In this document: positions 3,445 to 17,101 of the stretch, piece by piece
Position numbering within the stretch: position 1 is the first letter of the stretch
Layout: each line of letters starts with the position of its first letter
From: Escherichia coli
GTDB taxonomy: Bacteria; Pseudomonadota; Gammaproteobacteria; Enterobacterales; Enterobacteriaceae
DNA length: 64,000 nucleotides
Reading direction: 5' to 3' (one strand)
NCBI RefSeq assembly: GCF_003018115.1
Contig: NZ_CP027457.1
Program-made: the position numbers and the translations under genes
The notes under the pieces: model-generated
Told to the model about the DNA's origin: nothing
The model's input: the letters and a program-made list of their open reading frames with translations, nothing else
Database searches by the model: none

Positions 3445-4212
3445 GTGCCTGGTTTGAAGATTACGCTTTTGCAGCAACCACTGGTGTGGATGGATGGCCC
3501 TGCCAACCTGCGTCATTTTGATCGTCAACTGGAAGGTATTACCGGGCGCGATGTGATCGTTCTACCGGAGATGTTTACCAGCGGCTTTGCCATGGAAGCG
3601 GCAGCTTCGTCGCTAGCACAAGATGACGTAGTGAACTGGATGACAGCTAAGGCGCAGCAGTGCAATGCGCTGATTGCAGGCAGTGTTGCATTACAAACGG
3701 AGTCTGGTTCGGTTAACCGCTTTTTGCTGGTTGAGCCGGGCGGCACGGTACATTTTTATGATAAGCGTCATCTGTTCCGCATGGCAGATGAGCATCTACA
3801 TTATAAAGCGGGCAATGCGCGAGTGATTGTGGAATGGCGCGGCTGGCGTATTTTGCCGCTGGTGTGCTACGACTTACGTTTTCCTGTGTGGTCGCGCAAT
3901 CTCAACGATTATGACCTCGCCCTGTACGTCGCCAACTGGCCTGCTCCGCGCTCTCTGCACTGGCAGGCATTGCTGACGGCCCGCGCGATTGAGAATCAGG
4001 CGTATGTGGCGGGATGCAATCGCGTCGGCAGCGATGGCAACGGCTGCCATTATCGCGGTGACAGCCGGGTGATTAATCCACAGGGCGAGATTATCGCTAC
4101 TGCCGACGCGCATCAGGCAACGCGCATTGATGCGGAGCTGTCGATGGCGGTGTTAAGGGAATATCGCGATAAGTTTCCGGCATGGCGGGATGCGGATGAG
4201 TTTAGGTTGTAG
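3445..4212 (+). CDS. yafV: Carbon-nitrogen hydrolase family protein YafV (omega-amidase)
   Basis: ORF 3436..4212; likely GTG start at 3445 ([15 protein letters not shown]...) 9 nt after AAGGAG; nitrilase-fold residues. Confidence 0.9.
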
Positions 4213-4257
4213 TGAGTGGGTGTTGTGTTTAGGGCTGGGGAGAGTCGGGGAAGACTA

Positions 4258-4640
4258 CGAAAGCCCGCTCTCCTGCGACCACTTTTATCATAGGAGTGTG
4301 GAAGTGCTTTTCCATCAATCGCGATGACGTCTTTGTCATTTGATGAATGGCAGTCACGCATCCAGTTAATAAAGCACTCGTGAAATTTTGCAGGACTGAT
4401 ACAGGATACAACTCTGGCAATGGTATCGTGAACAGGAATACCATTTTCAAAATCACCATATTGCTTCAAAAAATCGAGATGTGTTTCCCCAAAATCCTCT
4501 ATATCTTCCCAACCTTCTGCACCAGAAATAACGGCACAAATAGTCAACAGTAGAATATCCGATAATTTATGTTCCACGTTCCAGGCTTGTCTGTAATCGG
4601 GGATAACAGAAATATGTTCCATCAATTTTTTAAGTTCCAT
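4258..4640 (-). pseudogene. Internally deleted ISAs1-family (H-repeat) transposase copy
   Basis: First ~115 codons are near-identical to the intact copy at 4686..5822 ([20 protein letters not shown]...), then the frame diverges; nucleotide comparison shows the 5' part joined directly to the last ~30 bp of the element. Confidence 0.8.
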
Positions 4641-4676
4641 TTTGTTCTCCTTAATTATGTAAGGAGTATTTGATCC

Positions 4677-5860
4677 AGGGCAAGATTACGAAAGCCCGCT
4701 CCCCGCAAGGACTGACGCCAGATAGTTTCTGTCCATGGCTGCTTTTCGCATCTTACGTCTTAACCCTGCCTTGAATACCTTATCATTCGTCAAAATATTA
4801 ATAGCAATGTGCCGTATCCCTGAAAATAATTCCGCTGCATTTCCTCTTCTTATTCTGCAGTCGTCTTCATTCATTACCACGTCCAGGCGCCAGTGCAGCT
4901 TATTTTCCACGTGCCAGTGATTTCGGTTCGCTGTGGCGAACTTCTCTGCAGTTAAATCAGCAGAGCTGATATAATATCTGACCGTCATTTCGGGTTCTTT
5001 CTTTTGTTCTGCTATTATTGACCGAAAGGAGACTGCCACGCATAATTTCTTCAGCCCTTTCCATTCAAACGTGAAATCAATAAGTTCATCAGGGACATCG
5101 CAAACAATATGAAGACGGATTTCTTCTCTGCCGTGACTCTTTTCACTGATTGCGTAACTGTCATGCTCTGGATTATTTAATTCTTTCAGCGGAAATTTTT
5201 CCTCAAAGGCTTTATTTAGCCGCCCCTGGTTTCCTTTTACCGCGAATAAATAATCACCTCCCTGTTTTTGTATCTTCTCTGCAATATCTTTCTGGCAACC
5301 CATCGCATCAGTTGTGATGATTTTTCCTTTAATATCCAGCATGTTAAGAAGTTCTGGGATAGCTGTAATCTCATTAGATTTCTCATCCGTCCTGATCTGT
5401 CCGATGACCAGACTGTGCATTGTTGAGAACGCACTAATGACATGAATCGCTCCCCTGCGGCGACTCTTGTCATAAGAGTGCCGGAGCGTTTTTCCATCAA
5501 TTGCAATGACGTCTTTATCATCTGAAGAATGGCAGTCACGCATCCAGTTAATAAAGCACTCGTGAAATTTTGCAGGACTGATACAGGATACAACTCTGGC
5601 AATGGTATCGTGAACAGGAATACCATTTTCAAAATCACCATATTGCTTCAAAAAATCGAGATGTGTTTCCCCAAAATCCTCTATATCTTCCCAACCCTCT
5701 GCACCAGAAATGACGGCACAAATAGTCAACAGTAGAATATCTGACAATTTATGTTCTACTTTCCAGGCTTGTCTGTAATCGGGGATAATAGAAATATGTT
5801 CCATCAGTTTTTTAAGTTCCATTTTGTTCTCCTTATTTATGCAAGGAGTATTTGATCATA
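4677..5860 (-). mobile_element. Intact H-repeat (H-rpt) element, ISAs1 family
   Basis: Ends inferred from the repeated terminal sequences shared with the truncated copy (gggcaagattacgaaagcccgc... at the 3' end; ccttatttatgcaaggagtatttgatc at the 5' end); abuts the truncated copy in tandem. Confidence 0.75.
4686..5822 (-). CDS. ISAs1-family transposase (H-repeat-associated protein, YhhI-like), 378 aa
   Basis: 378-aa ORF typical of Rhs-associated H-rpt proteins (conserved DAMGCQ and [14 protein letters not shown] segments). Confidence 0.88.
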
Positions 5861-11248: not shown

Positions 11249-13390
11249 TCAAAATTGCCGCATATCCGGCATTCCGGGGGGTAAATCTTTCGGCACAGGC
11301 GCATCCGGTACAGGTTGTGTGGCACCACAGTTCCAGTTAATCACCGGCGCATCACCGTTCACATCCGACTCCCCTTCCAGATGAATGTGCGTACCATTAA
11401 GAAATATGCTTCCGTCCTTCGTCAGCACCAGCCTTGCCTTACCACAGCAGAGTTCAAGATGCTCACCGGCAGAATAAACTGCTGTTTGTCCGGTGTTTTC
11501 CTTCATCGTCTTGCCCACCGAGAAGGTGACGTTATTCCCTACATTGACGCTGTAGCCCATTCCCACCATCAGTGATTTATGCAGCCCTACCTGTGAGGAC
11601 TGCAACAACGCCACCGAGGTATTCATAATGCCGCCTACCGTCGTCTGATACGCCACACCCACCGTCAGCGCACGAATGATCCCCACCTTTTCAACCTGGT
11701 TTGATCCCACTTTGATAATCTGGTTACTGCCCACCGTTTCCACCTGGTTGACACCAACCGTCTGTATCTGATTAACGCCAATGTTCTGGATCTGGTTATT
11801 GGTAACGGTGATCGCCTGGTTGTTACCTATTTTTTCGGCATGGTTGTTTATCACATCAGTGGTGCGGTTATTCAGCACCTCGGTGTTCATGTTCTTCTGC
11901 GCGTGGATGTAGACCTGTTCTTTCCCTGTCGCATCGTCAAACTTCAGTTCATTAAACCCGCTGCCCTTATAGGTTTTCGAACGAATGGTCATCTGCGTCT
12001 TTGTTCCCGGCAGGCTGCCGGGTGTGCGGTTTTCCTGGTGGTAGGTGCGCCCCATAATGATCGGCTGGTCCGGATCGCCGTTGAGGAAGTCCACAATCAC
12101 CTCCTGACCCACACGCGGTATCGCCAGGTTACCAAACCCGGTGCCTGCCCACGCCTGTGCCACACGGATCCAGCATGAACTGTCCTGGTTTGACGGGTTA
12201 TAGCGGTCCCAGTTAAATTTCACCCGCACGCGACCATGTTCGTCGCAGAAGATTTCCTCGCCTGCCGGTCCCGTCACGACGGCGCTCTGCGGGCCATCCA
12301 CCAGCGGTTTCAGCAACGGCTGTGGTCGCCATGTTCTGTCTGCCGGTATTACCGCAAAATGGTTATCCAGCGTGGTGCCTGAACCCCTGCGTCCCGGTAC
12401 CGCCTGCGGCTGTTCGCCGTGAAGATCGCTCGCCACCACCTGCCATTCCCGGTTCAGGTTCGCCTGCGGATGCCCCGTCAGCACAATTCGCCGTCCCGGC
12501 CATATCTCCGGCGAACGGCTTGTTCCGCGCGCCACTTCTGCGTTGTTTCGCCAGCCATCCATCTGCCAGCGGGCAAAGTTCTGCCCGTGGGCACCCTTGA
12601 AACGTCCGGGGTAGTCATACACTTCATACTGTGTGCGCTGGTAATCCTGGTACTGGCCTTCCTGATCAAAACGCCCTGCCCAGCCGGGTCGTTTAAAGGT
12701 GTAGTCTTTGGTCACCACGGAAGAAGGGCGGATTTGTGCGCTGTAGCGAAACTGGCTGATGCAGAGGGTGCTTACCTCGGTACGGGTGTTCGGATTCCAG
12801 GGGATCTCAAAGGACTCCGGCAGATAACGCACGGTATCGCACAGGACCAGGCTCTGGTCGGTACTTTTTTGCGCGTGCTCCTCATAAAAGAAGATGCCTT
12901 CCTCCGCCGCCATCCGGCACAGGAAATCGTAATCAGTCTCACCGTACTGGACACAAAACTCACGGGAAGGATGCGGTTCACTGAACAGCGGACTCCACTC
13001 GGTCACCCCGTTTTCCTGCAATATCGTGCCGAGGATGCTTTTGATGTCCTCGTTCTGGAAGATACGGAAGTTCTGGCGCAGCCCTGTGCGCCACAGCGGC
13101 GGGCATACCTTCATGCTGTACAGCTTCTGGTTTTTGTCGTTCTCCCCCAGTTCAAACCAGGTCACCACACCTTTCACCCGGCGCTGTACGTCATCGCCCT
13201 GCCATATCGTCAGGTAGGCCATTTTGTCGAGGATCTGCTGGAATTCAAGGGAGAGAAACTGCTGGCTGACCAGAGAGAGAGCGAGGGAAAAAAGCGAAGA
13301 GAGTGACTGGTTCAGATGAAAGGAGACCACCGCAAAAGCATCCGGTGGCAGGCCGTCCACTTCCAGCGTGAAACGTAATCCGGTTGACAT
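11249..13390 (-). CDS. vgrG: T6SS spike protein VgrG (713 aa)
   Basis: Typical VgrG N-terminus (MSTGLRFTLEVDGLPPDAFAVVSF), gp27/gp5-like core and repetitive beta-helix region (NNQ/VGxNQ repeats). Confidence 0.93.
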   Translation of the reverse strand: MSTGLRFTLEVDGLPPDAFAVVSFHLNQSLSSLFSLALSLVSQQFLSLEFQQILDKMAYLTIWQGDDVQRRVKGVVTWFELGENDKNQKLYSMKVCPPLWRTGLRQNFRIFQNEDIKSILGTILQENGVTEWSPLFSEPHPSREFCVQYGETDYDFLCRMAAEEGIFFYEEHAQKSTDQSLVLCDTVRYLPESFEIPWNPNTRTEVSTLCISQFRYSAQIRPSSVVTKDYTFKRPGWAGRFDQEGQYQDYQRTQYEVYDYPGRFKGAHGQNFARWQMDGWRNNAEVARGTSRSPEIWPGRRIVLTGHPQANLNREWQVVASDLHGEQPQAVPGRRGSGTTLDNHFAVIPADRTWRPQPLLKPLVDGPQSAVVTGPAGEEIFCDEHGRVRVKFNWDRYNPSNQDSSCWIRVAQAWAGTGFGNLAIPRVGQEVIVDFLNGDPDQPIIMGRTYHQENRTPGSLPGTKTQMTIRSKTYKGSGFNELKFDDATGKEQVYIHAQKNMNTEVLNNRTTDVINNHAEKIGNNQAITVTNNQIQNIGVNQIQTVGVNQVETVGSNQIIKVGSNQVEKVGIIRALTVGVAYQTTVGGIMNTSVALLQSSQVGLHKSLMVGMGYSVNVGNNVTFSVGKTMKENTGQTAVYSAGEHLELCCGKARLVLTKDGSIFLNGTHIHLEGESDVNGDAPVINWNCGATQPVPDAPVPKDLPPGMPDMRQF

Positions 13391-13552
13391 AGCAACCTCC
13401 GGGGTTAAGGAAAAACAGACAGTTCGCTGTTAAAGCGGCTGTGACAGTACAGTGTTACGCTTGCGTTCAGGCACGCTACCGCCGAAGTTTCCGGCAGCCG
13501 CCATCTCCCGTGAACGTAACCCCTTACTGACAACCTTTCTTTCTACGGCGTA

Positions 13553-13590
13553 ATACAAAAACAGCATCCGGCCTGATAGCCGGATGCTGT
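13553..13590 (-). terminator. Intrinsic terminator or attenuator between hcp and vgrG
   Basis: Perfect 12-bp stem ACAGCATCCGGC/GCCGGATGCTGT with 6-nt loop, followed on the minus strand by TTTTGT; 10 nt after the hcp stop. Confidence 0.7.
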
Positions 13591-13599
13591 TGGCTTAAC

Positions 13600-14118
13600 T
13601 TATGCTTCCAGCGGTGCGCGCCAGTCGTCGGCACCGGAGGTGCCAGATTTGACGTGTTCCCATTCAATTTTGCGGTAGGCCAGTGAAACTTCGAGCAACT
13701 GGGTGAACTCGCGTTTCGCCGGGTCCTGGCAATGCGGCATATGCAGTTTCATATCGACAATCGTCGAATCAGTCAGGCGGGTAGTGAAATAATGCTCCTG
13801 TTTGCCTTCCACAGAGGTACGCCACCAGTGAAGTTCAGTGGTTGGCAGCATTTCGCCGGAGGCCAGTGCGTTGTACATCAGCGGAACCGCTTTGTTCAGC
13901 GCCACGGTAAAAATGAAAGGCTTGTGAGCACGCTGACCCGCAGGCTGACCGGACTGAGGATCGGTCGGGACAGTAACGTTATGCAGGAATTCCTGCACCA
14001 GCATCTCGTCTTCGTGCCCCTGCACATAGATGTTGCCGACAGAATCAGCGGTAAATGCACCTGCAGTAATATTTCCCTGGGTCTGACCAGTGATGGAGAT
14101 ATAACACGGTGTTGGCAT
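13600..14118 (-). CDS. hcp: T6SS inner-tube protein Hcp (172 aa)
   Basis: 172-aa ORF with an Hcp-like N-terminus (MPTPCYISITGQTQGNITAGAF...); size and position upstream of vgrG. Confidence 0.93.
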   Translation of the reverse strand: MPTPCYISITGQTQGNITAGAFTADSVGNIYVQGHEDEMLVQEFLHNVTVPTDPQSGQPAGQRAHKPFIFTVALNKAVPLMYNALASGEMLPTTELHWWRTSVEGKQEHYFTTRLTDSTIVDMKLHMPHCQDPAKREFTQLLEVSLAYRKIEWEHVKSGTSGADDWRAPLEA

Positions 14119-14815
14119 TTGTAAACTCCTTGTTAACGTGGTTAATTACTACTTACAATGACCTGCCGTTAATCCCAGACAGGCAGATGCAGCTCACTTC
14201 ACGGAACCGCATCATTTTTCAGTATTTTTTACATACAAACCGAGCTAGAATTTACGGTTGTCGTAAAAACTATTTTTAAAATCATTAAATCTCTTATTCA
14301 GCAATAACTTAATAATATATATCTGGATAACCATACCCAACTGTTCAAAGTCCGTATTGCCTCCATAAAATGGCCAAAGCTGAATCATGAATAAATATTG
14401 TATTTATCCTTTCTGAATTATCATTTTGATAATTTTTGAGATATTCCTTAAAAATACCCACTTAATCAATCACAAAACAAATATATAAACAAGCAATCAT
14501 TAGATTAGCTTATGTTTAATAAAATTATTATACAATTCAATAAGATGAATAAAAAACCCTATATTTAAATTATTGCCATAATACACCTGACGCGAATTAC
14601 ACAGGTTCACACAATCTATTTAACGCTTGCAGAATACCCCTCTTTACGATCGATAAAAAGTCCTTTTCTTATTTATTTTGAAGCGTAAAATGCGGGGTGA
14701 TGAAGGAGTGGTGATTTTATTTTCACCGCCATTAGGGCGGCATTGCCGATATTTTTTTGCGGTACAAATATGCCGTGTTCATGGCCTGTACGAGATAACA
14801 TGACGGATCACTTTT
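14119..14815. promoter_or_regulatory. AT-rich divergent control region between hcp and tssB
   Basis: ~700 bp without ORFs, visibly AT-rich, between divergent operons; contains a Fur-box-like inverted GATAAT pair (~14414..14436) and GATC sites at 14648 and 14806. Confidence 0.5.
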
Positions 14816-15316
14816 ATGAGCAAAAAATTTGAAGGCAGCGTCGCGCCTCGCGAGCGTATTAATATATCGTATGTCCCAAAAACAGATGGCCAGACGGCTG
14901 AAGTGGAACTTCCGCTTAACATGCTCGTTGTCGGCGATACCGGAAATACGCAGGAAACATCCCCACTGGATGAACGTCAGGCAGTTTCCGTTAACAAGCA
15001 CAATTTCGGTGCAGTGATGGCTGAAGCAGCCATTGGCCTCAATTTTACCGTCCCTGCCACACTGAAGGGAAGCACAACGGACGATGAGCTGAATGTGGCG
15101 CTGAATATCAAGTCACTGGATGATTTTTCACCAGATAGCGTGGCCCGGCAGGTTCCGGAAGTGAATAAATTGCTGGAACTGCGTGAAGCACTGACTGCAC
15201 TGAAGGGGCCGATGGGTAACCTTCCGGCATTCCGTACCCAGCTCCAGGCATTGCTGGAAAATGAAGAGTCCCGCGAGCAGTTGCTCAAAGAAATCGGCCA
15301 GGTGAGCAATAAATAA
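14816..15316 (+). CDS. tssB: T6SS contractile sheath small subunit TssB (VipA)
   Basis: 166-aa ORF, first gene of the structural operon; TssB-like size and sequence. Confidence 0.9.
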   Translation: MSKKFEGSVAPRERINISYVPKTDGQTAEVELPLNMLVVGDTGNTQETSPLDERQAVSVNKHNFGAVMAEAAIGLNFTVPATLKGSTTDDELNVALNIKSLDDFSPDSVARQVPEVNKLLELREALTALKGPMGNLPAFRTQLQALLENEESREQLLKEIGQVSNK

Positions 15317-15350
15317 CCACCACTATTTCATTAAACAGGGTTATCCAGGC

Positions 15351-15575
15351 ATGACGGCACACAAAAATATCTCCGGGACATACCACCTCTCTGTTGCAGA
15401 CATTCTGCAGGTGGTTTACCAGGTATGTTTCAGCCCGTCCGTTGAAATCAACCAGGATGGTGTGGCTGCGCTGATTACAACACTGGATCGCCGTATCAGT
15501 GATCTATTGGATGAGATTATCCATTTTTGTGAGTTTCAGCAGAGCGCGTCGCACTGGCAGCGCGTACTTCACTGA
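15351..15575 (+). CDS. Small ORF (74 aa) resembling the N-terminal region of TssC
   Basis: LDRRISDLLDEIIHFCEFQQSASHWQRVL aligns with TssC IDERISRQMDVIIHAPAFQQVESFWRSL; sits between tssB and tssC. Confidence 0.4.
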   Translation: MTAHKNISGTYHLSVADILQVVYQVCFSPSVEINQDGVAALITTLDRRISDLLDEIIHFCEFQQSASHWQRVLH

Positions 15576-15625
15576 CGGCGAAAAGCCGGTTTCAGAAACA
15601 CAGCTAAAACAGAAGGATTTTCAGT

Positions 15626-17101
15626 ATGTCTTTACAGGAAGAGGAACTCGTTTCCAGTCATGCCGGGCAGCCTGAGCAGGCATCGTCGCTGCTTGATCAA
15701 ATCATGGCACAGACCCGTATTCAGCCCGGTTCGGAAGGTTATGACGTTGCCCGCCAGGGTGTGACAGCCTTTATTGCCAGCATCCTGCAATCCACTGCAT
15801 CTGCCGAACCGGTCAATAAACTGGCCGTGGACAGCATGATTGCAGATATTGATGAACGCATCAGCCGCCAGATGGATGTCATCATCCATGCGCCTGCCTT
15901 TCAGCAGGTCGAGTCGTTCTGGCGCTCACTGAAAACCATGGTGGATCGCGTTGATTTCCGTGAAAACATCAAGGTCAACGTGCTTCATGTCACCAAGCAG
16001 GAACTTCTGGAAGACTTTGAGTTTGCGCCAGAAATTATTCAGTCCGGATTTTATAAGCACGTTTATTCGTCCGGTTTCGGACAGTTTGGCGGTGAACCCA
16101 TCGCTGCCGTGCTGGGCGCTTATGAGTTCAAAAATACCGCGCCTGACATGAAACTGCTGCAATACGTCAGTGCCGTGGGCGCAATGGCGCACGCACCGTT
16201 CCTGTCCTCCGTTTCCCCGGAGTTTATGGGGCTGAACTCGTGGACCGAACTGCCTAATATCAAAGATCTTTATGCCATCTTTGAAGGTCCGGCCTACACC
16301 AAATGGCGCGCCCTGCGTGACTCGGAAGATTCGCGCTATTTAGGGCTTACGGCACCCCGCTTCCTGCTTCGCCAGCCCTATTCACCAACAGATAACCCTG
16401 TTAAGAACTTTAACTATTACGAAGATGTCAGCCAGAACCACGAAGATTATCTGTGGGGTAATACGGCCTGGATGCTGGCATGCAATATCGCAGACAGTTT
16501 TGCCAAATACCGCTGGTGTCCAAACATTATCGGTCCGCAAAGCGGCGGCGCAGTGAAAGATCTGCCGGTGCATCTGTTCGAAACGATGGGGCAGATTCAG
16601 GCCAAAATCCCAACCGAGGTGCTGGTCACCGATCGCCGCGAATTTGAACTGGCTGAAGAGGGTTTTATCACCCTTACCATGCGTAAAGACTCTGATAATG
16701 CAGCCTTTTTCTCTGCAAACTCGGTACAAAAACCGAAGCACTTTCCGGGAAAAGATGCAGAAACCAACTATAAGCTGGGTACGCAGCTTCCTTATCTCTT
16801 CATCATCAATCGGTTAGCGCACTACATCAAGGTGTTGCAGCGTGAACAACTGGGGTCATGGAAAGAAAGGAGCGACTTAGAAAGAGAGCTTAATACCTGG
16901 ATCCGTCAGTATGTTGCCGACCAGGAAAACCCGCCTGCAGACGTGCGCAGCCGCAAACCTCTGCGCGCTGCCAAAGTTGAGGTTATGGATGTAGAAGGCG
17001 AACCCGGCTGGTACCAGGTTGCGCTAAGCGTGAGACCTCATTTTAAATTTATGGGGGCAAATTTTGAGCTTTCCCTGGTTGGCCGGTTAGACAGGGAGTA
17101 A
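15626..17101 (+). CDS. tssC: T6SS contractile sheath large subunit TssC (VipB)
   Basis: 491-aa ORF, canonical TssC length and sequence. Confidence 0.93.
   Translation: MSLQEEELVSSHAGQPEQASSLLDQIMAQTRIQPGSEGYDVARQGVTAFIASILQSTASAEPVNKLAVDSMIADIDERISRQMDVIIHAPAFQQVESFWRSLKTMVDRVDFRENIKVNVLHVTKQELLEDFEFAPEIIQSGFYKHVYSSGFGQFGGEPIAAVLGAYEFKNTAPDMKLLQYVSAVGAMAHAPFLSSVSPEFMGLNSWTELPNIKDLYAIFEGPAYTKWRALRDSEDSRYLGLTAPRFLLRQPYSPTDNPVKNFNYYEDVSQNHEDYLWGNTAWMLACNIADSFAKYRWCPNIIGPQSGGAVKDLPVHLFETMGQIQAKIPTEVLVTDRREFELAEEGFITLTMRKDSDNAAFFSANSVQKPKHFPGKDAETNYKLGTQLPYLFIINRLAHYIKVLQREQLGSWKERSDLERELNTWIRQYVADQENPPADVRSRKPLRAAKVEVMDVEGEPGWYQVALSVRPHFKFMGANFELSLVGRLDRE

What the first reader, a model, noticed from the sequence alone, without database searches (positions are those of the whole stretch)
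14119..14815. Long AT-rich divergent control region between hcp and tssB, with a Fur-box-like element
The ~700-bp intergenic region between the divergently transcribed effector and structural operons is strongly AT-rich (candidate H-NS silencing target). It contains an inverted GATAAT pair (GAATTATCATTTTGATAATTT, ~14414..14436) resembling a Fur box, plus two GATC sites (14648, 14806), the second 10 bp upstream of the tssB ATG. Iron/Fur and Dam-methylation control is known for another E. coli T6SS, but is unverified here.
Basis: partly seen in the sequence, partly recalled or inferred. Interest (0 to 1): 0.45.

Follow-up and report, generated by a model that had tools for sequence, protein, structure and literature searches.

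The report
Known H-NS-silenced T6SS-2 promoter region
This AT-rich 697-bp spacer is the already-studied, H-NS-silenced two-way promoter region of the E. coli T6SS-2 weapon cluster, and the proposed iron (Fur) and Dam-methylation control is not supported by sequence statistics, conservation or published Fur binding maps.

Summary
A 697-bp spacer (14119-14815) lies between divergent hcp and tssB. Its GC is 0.33, falling to 0.255 in the core, against 0.52 for the window. It holds a perfect palindrome AATTATCA-TTT-TGATAATT (14416-14434) and GATC sites at 14648 and 14806.

The locus is E. coli T6SS-2. The same spacer, 95-99% identical, occurs in 2228 of 5426 complete genomes, including O157:H7. Published work on EHEC and Shigella sonnei already treats it as the bidirectional T6SS promoter region, and in EHEC it is repressed by H-NS.

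The Fur/Dam part is not supported:
- A Fur matrix built from 15 K-12 Fur promoters scores the palindrome 10.3 bits, the low end of real sites, and about half of shuffles reach that score.
- The arms face the wrong way for the 7-1-7 Fur geometry.
- The dyad is broken in E. albertii and absent in other genera.
- GATC count is at chance, no GATC lies inside the element, and neither GATC is conserved outside E. coli and E. albertii.
- Published Fur ChIP-exo in O157:H7 Sakai, which carries the identical element, lists no peak within about 70 kb upstream or 24 kb downstream.

One crude measure, (NATWAT)x3, does exceed chance. Verdict: ordinary, already known.

The parts
13600..14118 (-). hcp (172 aa), first gene of the hcp-vgrG-rhs effector arm
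   Evidence: ORF. The matching locus is annotated as an Hcp family T6SS effector in RefSeq.
14119..14815 (.). 697-bp AT-rich divergent intergenic region, called 't6sP' in the EHEC literature
   Evidence: GC 0.329. It is 95-99% identical in 2228 of 5426 complete E. coli genomes. S. sonnei cloning primers match both of its ends.
14126..14131 (-). Shine-Dalgarno AAGGAG of hcp, 7 nt before the ATG
   Evidence: Read directly from the sequence. Invariant in the six-sequence alignment and nearly so across all ten.
14161..14184 (-). Conserved stem-loop in the hcp leader (8 pairs in the consensus, 7 formed in the window; 9-nt loop)
   Evidence: RNAalifold on 6 orthologues gives 8 pairs, 2 of them with compensatory changes (CG/UA split 3:3).
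14280..14600 (.). AT-rich core (GC 0.255), the likely H-NS nucleation and spreading platform
   Evidence: TpA steps are 10.3 per 100 bp against 4.4 for the window. There are 20 A/T tracts of at least 4 nt against 6.6 expected.
14386..14407 (-). Best-conserved central block, CATGAATAAATATTGTATTTAT. It contains a -10-like TACAAT on the hcp strand (14402..14397) and is the candidate distal hcp promoter (inferred).
   Evidence: A -10-like hexamer is seen at this column in 9 of 10 orthologues (TAyAAT in 6). Consensus scan hit. A promoter prediction falls at or within 5 bp of this column in 5 of 10 sequences.
14416..14434 (.).
   Evidence: Fur matrix score 10.3 bits. (NATWAT)x3 match 14/15. It overlaps the -35-like ATGATA of the candidate hcp promoter and a TTGATA on the other strand.
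14648..14659 (.). GATC number 1 (14648-14651), overlapping TCGATAAAAA, which matches the H-NS high-affinity motif TCGATAAATT (motif recalled from Lang et al. 2007, not re-checked) at 8 of 10 positions
   Evidence: The GATC is lost in E. albertii, Yokenella and C. youngae.
14655..14668 (+). Conserved block AAAAAGTnCTTyTC at about -44 to -30 of the candidate tssB promoter; a possible regulator site (inferred)
14686..14691 (+). Conserved -10-like TAAAAT inside the conserved block GCGTAAAATG (near-invariant; GCGTAGAATG in the E. coli variant); the candidate tssB promoter (inferred)
   Evidence: A promoter prediction falls at or within 3 bp of this column in 4 orthologues. The overlapping uORF is not conserved.
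14796..14810 (+). Conserved tssB ribosome-binding block TAACATGACGGATCA, containing GATC number 2 (14806-14809)
   Evidence: The corresponding sequence is GGATTA or GGATGA in four relatives, so the GATC is not conserved.
14816..15316 (+). tssB (166 aa), first gene of the structural operon
   Evidence: Relatives carry Pfam PF05591. RefSeq names the gene tssB.

Best explanation
The region is the bidirectional regulatory spacer of the E. coli T6SS-2 island, which sits between yafV and the rRNA operon at about 46.4-51.5 kb in the window. It works mainly as a xenogeneic-silencing target. Its roughly 440-bp, 72% AT core (14200-14640) recruits H-NS, which coats or bridges the spacer and shuts both outward-facing promoters (shown in EHEC by others; inferred for this strain). 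Transcription most likely starts from two weak sigma-70-type promoters. Both have poor -35 elements and their conserved -10 hexamers lie about 285 bp apart (14402..14397 on the hcp strand, 14686..14691 on the tssB strand). This would give long leaders of about 270 nt for hcp and about 117 nt for tssB (inferred from conservation; transcription start sites not seen here). The hcp leader carries a conserved stem-loop. The GATAAT palindrome is a lineage-specific AT-rich dyad overlapping the -35 region of the candidate hcp promoter. It is not a Fur operator, and the two GATC sites are incidental.
For: Identity of the locus:
- RefSeq annotation of near-identical loci.
- The spacer is 95-99% identical in 2228 genomes, including O157:H7.
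- S. sonnei primers match both ends.

H-NS:
- hns deletion de-represses these genes up to 60-fold in EHEC (PMC5363993).
- PMC13141884 reports H-NS bound between hcp3 and tssB, citing earlier work, and higher hcp3/tssB mRNA and reporter output in the hns mutant.
- The same H-NS dependence was seen for the diverged APEC T6SS2.
- Long AT-rich spacers are conserved in 10 orthologous loci.

Against Fur/Dam:
- Fur matrix score of 10.3 bits is reached by 44-52% of shuffles.
- The best 7-1-7 match is 10/14, reached by 73% of shuffles.
- Higher-scoring sites occur in other AT-rich parts of the window.
- The left arm is disrupted by a 4-bp insertion in E. albertii.
- Best Fur hits in orthologues fall at non-homologous positions.
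- GATC count is at expectation.
- Sakai Fur ChIP-exo detects fhuA (peak P7) but lists nothing between 193,087 and 288,115. The identical palindrome lies at 263,817-263,837.
- No T6SS-2 locus tags appear in the Fur regulon tables.

Promoters and leader.
Against: - On the crude hexamer model (NATWAT)x3 the palindrome matches 14/15. Only 1.5-3.4% of shuffles reach this, and it is better than any of 15 genuine Fur promoters (10-13/15).
- Validated sci-1 Fur boxes match the consensus only 11/19 and 13/19, so weak matches can still be functional.
- The palindrome overlaps a predicted -35, which is a classic repressor position.
- In the EHEC hns mutant, T6SS proteins appear only in DMEM or modified M9. 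These are lower-iron media than LB (my inference; the paper does not say so). This leaves room for a second, medium-responsive repressor.
- The absence of a ChIP-exo peak could reflect occlusion by H-NS.
- No experiment has been done on this strain.
- Promoter positions are inferred. I could not read the one paper with 5' RACE data (Kim et al. 2022, PMID 35984617).
Confidence: 0.8

Rival explanations
1. A Fur/Dam epigenetic switch of the sci-1 type. Fur-Fe binds the GATAAT palindrome and represses transcription, and Dam methylation of nearby GATC sites modulates the switch.
For: - (NATWAT)x3 match of 14/15, rare in shuffles.
- The element is the top Fur-matrix hit in the spacer.
- It overlaps a predicted -35.
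- There is precedent in EAEC sci-1, where functional boxes match only 11-13/19.
- In the hns mutant, DMEM or MM9 is needed for protein expression.
Against: - The matrix score is at chance level.
- The half-site orientation is wrong for 7-1-7.
- There is no GATC inside or next to the element; the sites are 214 and 372 bp away.
- There are 2 GATC in 697 bp against 1.5-2.1 expected, whereas sci-1 has 3 in 53 nt.
- GATC 14806 lies in the ribosome-binding region.
- The dyad and both GATC sites are not conserved.
- There is no Fur ChIP-exo peak in Sakai, which has the identical sequence.
- Sci-1 inducing medium did not consistently activate the EHEC promoters.
- fur deletion and iron limitation had no effect on the related APEC T6SS2.
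Confidence: 0.05
2. The palindrome is a functional operator or architectural site for another protein. Candidates are an unidentified dimeric regulator, IHF, or back-to-back -35 hexamers (ATGATA and TTGATA) of two divergent promoters.
For: - Perfect 8-bp arms.
- The core TCAyTTTGATAA is kept in three Escherichia lineages.
- IHF consensus match with one mismatch at 14419, minus strand.
- Promoter-like hits on both strands use its two arms as -35 elements.
- In the E. coli variant locus the equivalent -35 is GTGACA, paired with a perfect TATAAT.
- The natural activator of T6SS-2 is still unknown.
Against: - Palindromes this good occur in 24% of shuffles.
- Promoter-like hits are not enriched: 5 against 4.0 +/- 1.9.
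- IHF-like hits number 5 against 2.4 expected.
- The dyad is broken in E. albertii and absent in the other genera.
Confidence: 0.15

Closest known systems
EHEC O157:H7 / Shigella sonnei T6SS-2 bidirectional promoter region ('t6sP', between z0264 tssB and z0265/hcp3)
   Same: It is the same locus. The spacer is 97.7% identical (696 vs 697 bp), has the same flanking genes and the identical palindrome and GATC sites. H-NS repression, reporter fusions and promoter swapping have been published.
   Different: The window's allele differs at about 2% of positions. One example is T7 versus T6 at 14751-14757, and CACAAT versus TAAAAT at about 14610. Nothing has been tested in this strain.
EAEC sci-1 (T6SS-1) Fur/Dam switch (Brunet et al. 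2011, PMC3145626)
   Same: An E. coli T6SS promoter region with a weak match to the Fur consensus (11-13/19 there, 12/19 here) and GATC sites in the region.
   Different: In sci-1 the fur1 box overlaps the -10 and contains GATC-I, and there are three GATC in 53 nt. Here no GATC lies within 214 bp of the element and GATC is not enriched. The cluster is a different T6SS family with an unrelated promoter sequence. Fur is not detected at the locus in Sakai.
APEC/ExPEC B2-type T6SS2 hcp2B/vipA2 divergent region
   Same: The same architecture (vgrG-hcp divergent from tssB-tssC...). It is de-repressed by hns deletion and is independent of fur and iron. CpxR-P binds its hcp2B promoter.
   Different: The intergenic sequence is not alignable with the window's. 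The published primers do not match, and only 29 genomes give partial hits at 60-80% identity. Its regulator data therefore transfer only by analogy.
H-NS-silenced T6SS loci in other enterobacteria (Salmonella SPI-6 is the example cited)
   Same: An AT-rich regulatory region in a horizontally acquired island that is silent in the laboratory and de-repressed in hns mutants.
   Different: These are different clusters with different sequences. The comparison is by mechanism only.

Membership tests
H-NS-silenced xenogeneic regulatory region | AT content well above the genome average over several hundred bp | tested here: met
   GC 0.329 (core 0.255) against 0.519 for the window. The minimum 300-bp GC is 0.233.
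H-NS-silenced xenogeneic regulatory region | Lies in an accessory, horizontally acquired island | tested here: met
   Found in 2235 of 5426 complete genomes, once each. The island lies between yafV/ISAs1 and the large-ORF-free stretch at about 46.4-51.5 kb that I take to be an rRNA operon.
H-NS-silenced xenogeneic regulatory region | H-NS occupancy, and de-repression on hns deletion | not testable with these tools
   Reported for the 97.7% identical EHEC region (PMC5363993; PMC13141884). Not tested in this strain.
   Three 8/10 matches (14362, 14426, 14650) against 2.4 expected from shuffles.
Fur box / Fur regulon | Scores like known Fur sites, and above background, on a matrix built from real sites | tested here: inconclusive
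   10.3 bits. Known sites score 7.2-22.0 on leave-one-out (median 12.4). 44-52% of shuffles reach 10.3. The (NATWAT)x3 match is 14/15, P about 0.015-0.034.
Fur box / Fur regulon | 7-1-7 inverted repeat TGATAATnATTATCA, with half-sites facing inward | tested here: not met
   The arms are everted (ATTATCA-ttt-TGATAAT). The best 7-1-7 match is 10/14, reached by 73% of shuffles.
Fur box / Fur regulon | Fur occupancy in vivo | tested here: not met
   Published ChIP-exo for O157:H7 Sakai, in iron-replete and iron-starved conditions, lists no peak between 193,087 and 288,115. The identical element lies at 263,817-263,837. This is literature data for another strain.
Fur box / Fur regulon | fur- or iron-dependent expression | not testable with these tools
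   No ECs021x-024x tags appear in the Sakai Fur regulon tables. APEC T6SS2 is unaffected by fur deletion or iron limitation. Sci-1 inducing medium did not consistently activate the EHEC promoters.
Fur box / Fur regulon | Conservation of the site in orthologous promoters | tested here: not met
   The left arm is disrupted in E. albertii and the element is absent in Yokenella, Citrobacter, Salmonella and others. Best hits in those sequences fall at non-homologous positions.
sci-1-type Fur/Dam switch | A GATC inside the Fur box that overlaps the -10 | tested here: not met
   The nearest GATC is 214 bp from the palindrome. For the sci-1 arrangement.
sci-1-type Fur/Dam switch | Clustered, over-represented GATC sites at the promoter | tested here: not met
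   Two sites 158 bp apart, against 1.5-2.1 expected; P(at least 2) = 0.47. Orthologues have 0-3 sites at non-homologous positions.

The most novel reading that the evidence does not exclude
The palindrome at the -35 of the distal hcp promoter is a second lock beneath H-NS. It would be an operator for Fur, or for another medium-responsive dimeric repressor, that matters only once H-NS is displaced. This would explain why the EHEC hns mutant makes T6SS-2 proteins in DMEM or modified M9 but not in LB, and it would give iron or nutrient input to a system whose natural inducing signal is still unknown.
Probability: 0.07. Interest if true: 0.4.

Novelty: already known. Interest (0 to 1): 0.12.

Why it matters
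T6SS-2 is described in PMC13141884 as the most prevalent E. coli T6SS; this spacer is in 41% of complete genomes. It has been linked to EHEC virulence, yet nobody has found the signal that switches it on. A genuine Fur/Dam switch here would have supplied that signal, but the evidence says it is not there. The practical value of this check is negative and tidy: iron and Dam are poor leads for this locus. The conserved blocks at 14386-14407, 14655-14668 and 14683-14692, and the hcp leader hairpin, are better places to look for the missing activator or for post-transcriptional control.

Tried and rejected
- Rfam scan of 13000-16000 at E up to 10: only noise, no known RNA family.
- Leader peptide or attenuator upstream of tssB. 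The window has a 37-aa uORF (14690-14803) and a hairpin followed by a T-run, and the leader folds with z = -2.2. However, the uORF is frameshifted in O157:H7 and reduced to a start codon followed directly by a stop in the E. coli variant locus, its peptides are unrelated, and it has no Shine-Dalgarno sequence. RNAalifold finds no conserved pairs. Rejected.
- Sigma-54, CRP and FNR sites: none at the chosen thresholds. CpxR, PhoP, RcsB, ArcA and Lrp matches are at chance. ArgR-like and IHF-like matches are marginal.
- Small ORFs inside the spacer, for example 14245-14388 (-): not conserved even in E. albertii, judged by reading alignment A1.
- Transferring the APEC Fur-negative and CpxR-positive results directly: rejected, because the APEC B2-type spacer is a different sequence.
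- Reading Kim et al. 2022, which has the 5' RACE and H-NS EMSA data for this promoter: not held in the library.
- dRNA-seq supplement of Sy et al. 2020: not held. Fur site tables of Chen et al. 2007: not held. I therefore built a Fur matrix from 15 MG1655 promoters instead.
- The genome-contig scan with TssB returned only 4 loci. I added four more through a protein search and contig look-ups.

Full report
**1.

hcp occupies 13600-14118 on the minus strand and tssB 14816-15316 on the plus strand. The 697 bp between them have GC 0.329, falling to 0.255 over 14280-14600, against 0.519 for the whole window. The lowest 300-bp GC in the spacer (0.233) ties for the lowest in the 64 kb.

The string GAATTATCATTTTGATAATTT starts at 14415. 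It contains a perfect palindrome, AATTATCA-TTT-TGATAATT, at 14416-14434. GATC occurs at 14648 and 14806, the latter 10 nt before the tssB ATG.

**2. What the locus is**

The spacer is present once per genome in 2235 of 5426 complete E. coli genomes, and 2228 of them carry it nearly full-length at 95-99% identity. These include O157:H7. RefSeq annotation of those loci gives rhs, vgrG and hcp on one side. On the other side it gives tssB, a small hypothetical gene, then tssC, tssE, tssF, tssG, tagH, tssJ, tssK, tssL, tssH, vasI, tssA, tssM and further genes. The island sits next to fadE, ivy and yafV.

This is the cluster the literature calls E. coli T6SS-2. Cloning primers published for Shigella sonnei match both ends of the window's spacer. 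A diverged E. coli variant, E. albertii, Yokenella, two Citrobacter species, Salmonella, Superficieibacter and Enterobacter all have the same vgrG-hcp / tssB-tssC layout. Their spacers are 552-754 bp with GC 0.29-0.34, against flanks of 0.48-0.54. A long AT-rich spacer is therefore a conserved property of this T6SS lineage and not a peculiarity of this window.

**3. The H-NS reading is correct and already published**

- In EHEC EDL933 the cluster is almost silent in vitro, and hns deletion raises transcription up to 60-fold, reversed by complementation (PMC5363993).
- A 2026 paper names this spacer t6sP. It states that H-NS is bound between hcp3 and tssB, citing the 2017 paper and Kim et al. 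2022. It replaces the spacer with inducible promoters, and shows higher hcp3/tssB mRNA and reporter activity in an hns mutant (PMC13141884).
- The S. sonnei study made reporter fusions in both directions and found no inducing condition.
- At the sequence level the spacer has the composition H-NS prefers: 10.3 TpA steps per 100 bp against 4.4 for the window, and 20 A/T tracts against 6.6 expected.

**4. The Fur reading**

I tested the element four ways.

(a) Consensus match. It matches 12 of 19 positions. About 90% of dinucleotide shuffles of the spacer contain a match at least that good, and a neighbouring site at 14390 matches 13 of 19.

(b) Geometry. Fur's 7-1-7 motif has the half-sites facing inward (TGATAATnATTATCA). 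Here they are everted (ATTATCA-ttt-TGATAAT). The best 7-1-7 match is 10 of 14, reached by 73% of shuffles.

(c) A data-derived matrix. I took 15 classical Fur-repressed promoters from MG1655: fepA-fes, fepD-entS, fepB-entC, fhuA, fiu, tonB, cirA, fecI, fecA, exbB, ryhB, fhuF, fhuE, fur and sodA. From them I derived a symmetric 19-bp matrix, which recovered the textbook consensus.
- The palindrome is the best hit in the spacer at 10.3 bits.
- Known sites score 7.2-22.0 on leave-one-out, with a median of 12.4.
- 44% of whole-region shuffles and 52% of block-wise shuffles reach 10.3 bits.
- Other AT-rich parts of the window score higher, at 13.3 and 14.8 bits.
- Orthologous spacers have best hits of 8.8-14.5 bits at non-homologous positions.

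(d) The old hexamer model. Against (NATWAT)x3 the element matches 14 of 15 positions. That is better than any of the 15 real promoters (10-13), and only 1.5-3.4% of shuffles reach it.

I report (d) as genuine evidence in favour. It is one of four measures, it is uncorrected for multiple testing, and it is the least specific of them.

**5. Conservation argues against an operator**

In E. albertii (TssB 93% identical, flanks well aligned) the left arm reads AATCTCA and carries a 4-bp insertion. In the E. coli variant locus it is ATTGTCA. In Yokenella, C. youngae and Salmonella nothing comparable aligns. Only the core TCAyTTTGATAA is kept within Escherichia.

**6. Direct published evidence against Fur binding**

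The Fur pan-regulon study did ChIP-exo on fur-8myc strains under iron-replete and iron-starved conditions in nine strains, including O157:H7 Sakai (PMC10164565). Its Sakai table lists a peak at fhuA (P7, 171,778). It then lists P10 at 193,075 and P11 at 288,115 (dinB), with nothing in between.

In Sakai, tssB is ECs_0233 and hcp is ECs_0234. The spacer is 263,438-264,133 and the identical 21-mer lies at 263,817-263,837. No ECs021x-024x tags appear in the binding or regulon tables.

There are caveats. The table uses NC_002695.1 and I read NC_002695.2. H-NS could mask the site. The Sakai RNA-seq sheet was truncated in the stored copy.

Two weaker lines agree:
- In APEC, fur deletion and iron limitation did not change clpV2 or hcp2B while hns deletion did. 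That spacer is a different sequence, though.
- Sci-1 inducing medium was among the media that failed to activate the EHEC promoters consistently.

[quoted passage not shown] Fur was not among them.

**7. The Dam reading**

Two GATC in 697 bp compare with 1.5 expected from dinucleotide shuffles, 2.1 from base composition, and 2.4 at the window's average density. P(at least 2) is 0.47. The two sites are 158 bp apart, and 214 and 372 bp from the palindrome.

The defining features of the sci-1 switch are a GATC inside the Fur box at the -10, and three GATC within 53 nt. Neither is met here.

GATC 14806 lies in the conserved ribosome-binding block TAACATGACGGATCA. It reads GGATTA or GGATGA in four relatives. 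GATC 14648 is lost in E. albertii, Yokenella and C. youngae.

**8. What else is in the spacer (inference)**

- The best-conserved central block, 14386-14407, carries a -10-like hexamer on the hcp strand at 14402..14397. It reads TACAAT in the window, O157:H7 and E. albertii, TATAAT in three relatives, and TATGAT, TGTAAT or TTTAAT in three others; Superficieibacter aligns to AAGCAT.
- A promoter scan places a prediction at or within 5 bp of that column in 5 of 10 sequences, and it is the top minus-strand hit in two of them. Its -35 (ATGATA, 14424..14419) falls in the palindrome's left arm. The other arm is a TTGATA on the plus strand.
- Near tssB, the block GCGTAAAATG is conserved, with a TAAAAT at 14686-14691. 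It is preceded by the conserved block AAAAAGTnCTTyTC (14655-14668) and by AGAATAC (14631-14637).
- These positions would give leaders of about 270 nt for hcp and about 117 nt for tssB. The poor -35 elements suggest dependence on an activator.
- The hcp leader has a stem-loop at 14161-14184 with two covarying pairs among six sequences.
- The tssB leader has no conserved structure, and its uORF is not conserved.
- None of these elements is demonstrated.

**9. Verdict**

The finding describes a real and correctly located feature. Its main functional reading, H-NS silencing of a bidirectional T6SS promoter region, is already in the literature for this very sequence. The added Fur/Dam hypothesis fails the geometry, conservation, GATC and in-vivo occupancy tests. 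It survives only on a permissive hexamer count.

I put about 5% on a sci-1-like switch. I put about 7% on the broader idea that the palindrome is a second-layer, medium-responsive operator. That idea draws some support from the observation that the EHEC hns mutant needs DMEM or modified M9 to make T6SS proteins.

Novelty: already known. Interest: low.

Noticed in passing
window 15351-15575 (+): A 74-aa ORF lies between tssB and tssC and is annotated as hypothetical in RefSeq. It has a sub-threshold Pfam hit to the first ~33 positions of the TssC/VipB N-terminal domain (E = 0.0026). It is 40% identical to a 70-aa ORF at the same position in a Salmonella locus, and is absent where tssB and tssC abut (C. 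farmeri, E. bugandensis, Superficieibacter). It looks like a retained duplicate of the tssC 5' end.
   Followed up: partly
window 14161-14184 (-): A conserved stem-loop lies in the hcp 5' leader, about 43 nt upstream of the ATG. Two pairs covary (CG/UA) among six orthologues. It could be an RNA stability or regulatory element, or a DNA palindrome.
   Followed up: partly
window 13560-13591 (-): A strong 14-bp hairpin with a T-run lies just downstream of hcp. It corresponds to the terminator and stabiliser 'h3R region I' described between hcp3 and vgrG3 in EHEC (PMC13141884).
   Followed up: no
window 14751-14757, and about 14610-14615: There are allelic differences from O157:H7 inside the spacer. 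The T-run is T7 here and T6 there. A -10-like hexamer reads CACAAT here and TAAAAT in O157:H7, where it gives the best plus-strand promoter score. These are possible sources of strain-to-strain differences in expression.
   Followed up: no
RefSeq record NZ_CP026085.1 (hit H36): A genome labelled 'E. coli DH5alpha' carries this T6SS-2 spacer at 98.4% identity. As far as I know, K-12 strains lack the island (from memory, not checked here), so the record is probably mislabelled.
   Followed up: no
window 4436 and 5618: Identical 19-mers, GAATACCATTTTCAAAATC, flank the ISAs1-family transposase ORF at 4686-5822. They are probably the ends of the insertion sequence. They turned up as incidental Fur-matrix hits of 10.9 bits.
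   Followed up: no
locus L003 (NZ_CM132268.1), 4001-4682: A second, diverged T6SS-2-like cluster type in E. coli has hcp-vgrG-DUF2169-PAAR. About 29 genomes give partial hits at 60-80% identity. It shares only the hcp-proximal ~170 bp of the spacer, at 71% identity, and has a much better candidate hcp promoter (GTGACA-16-TATAAT).
   Followed up: partly
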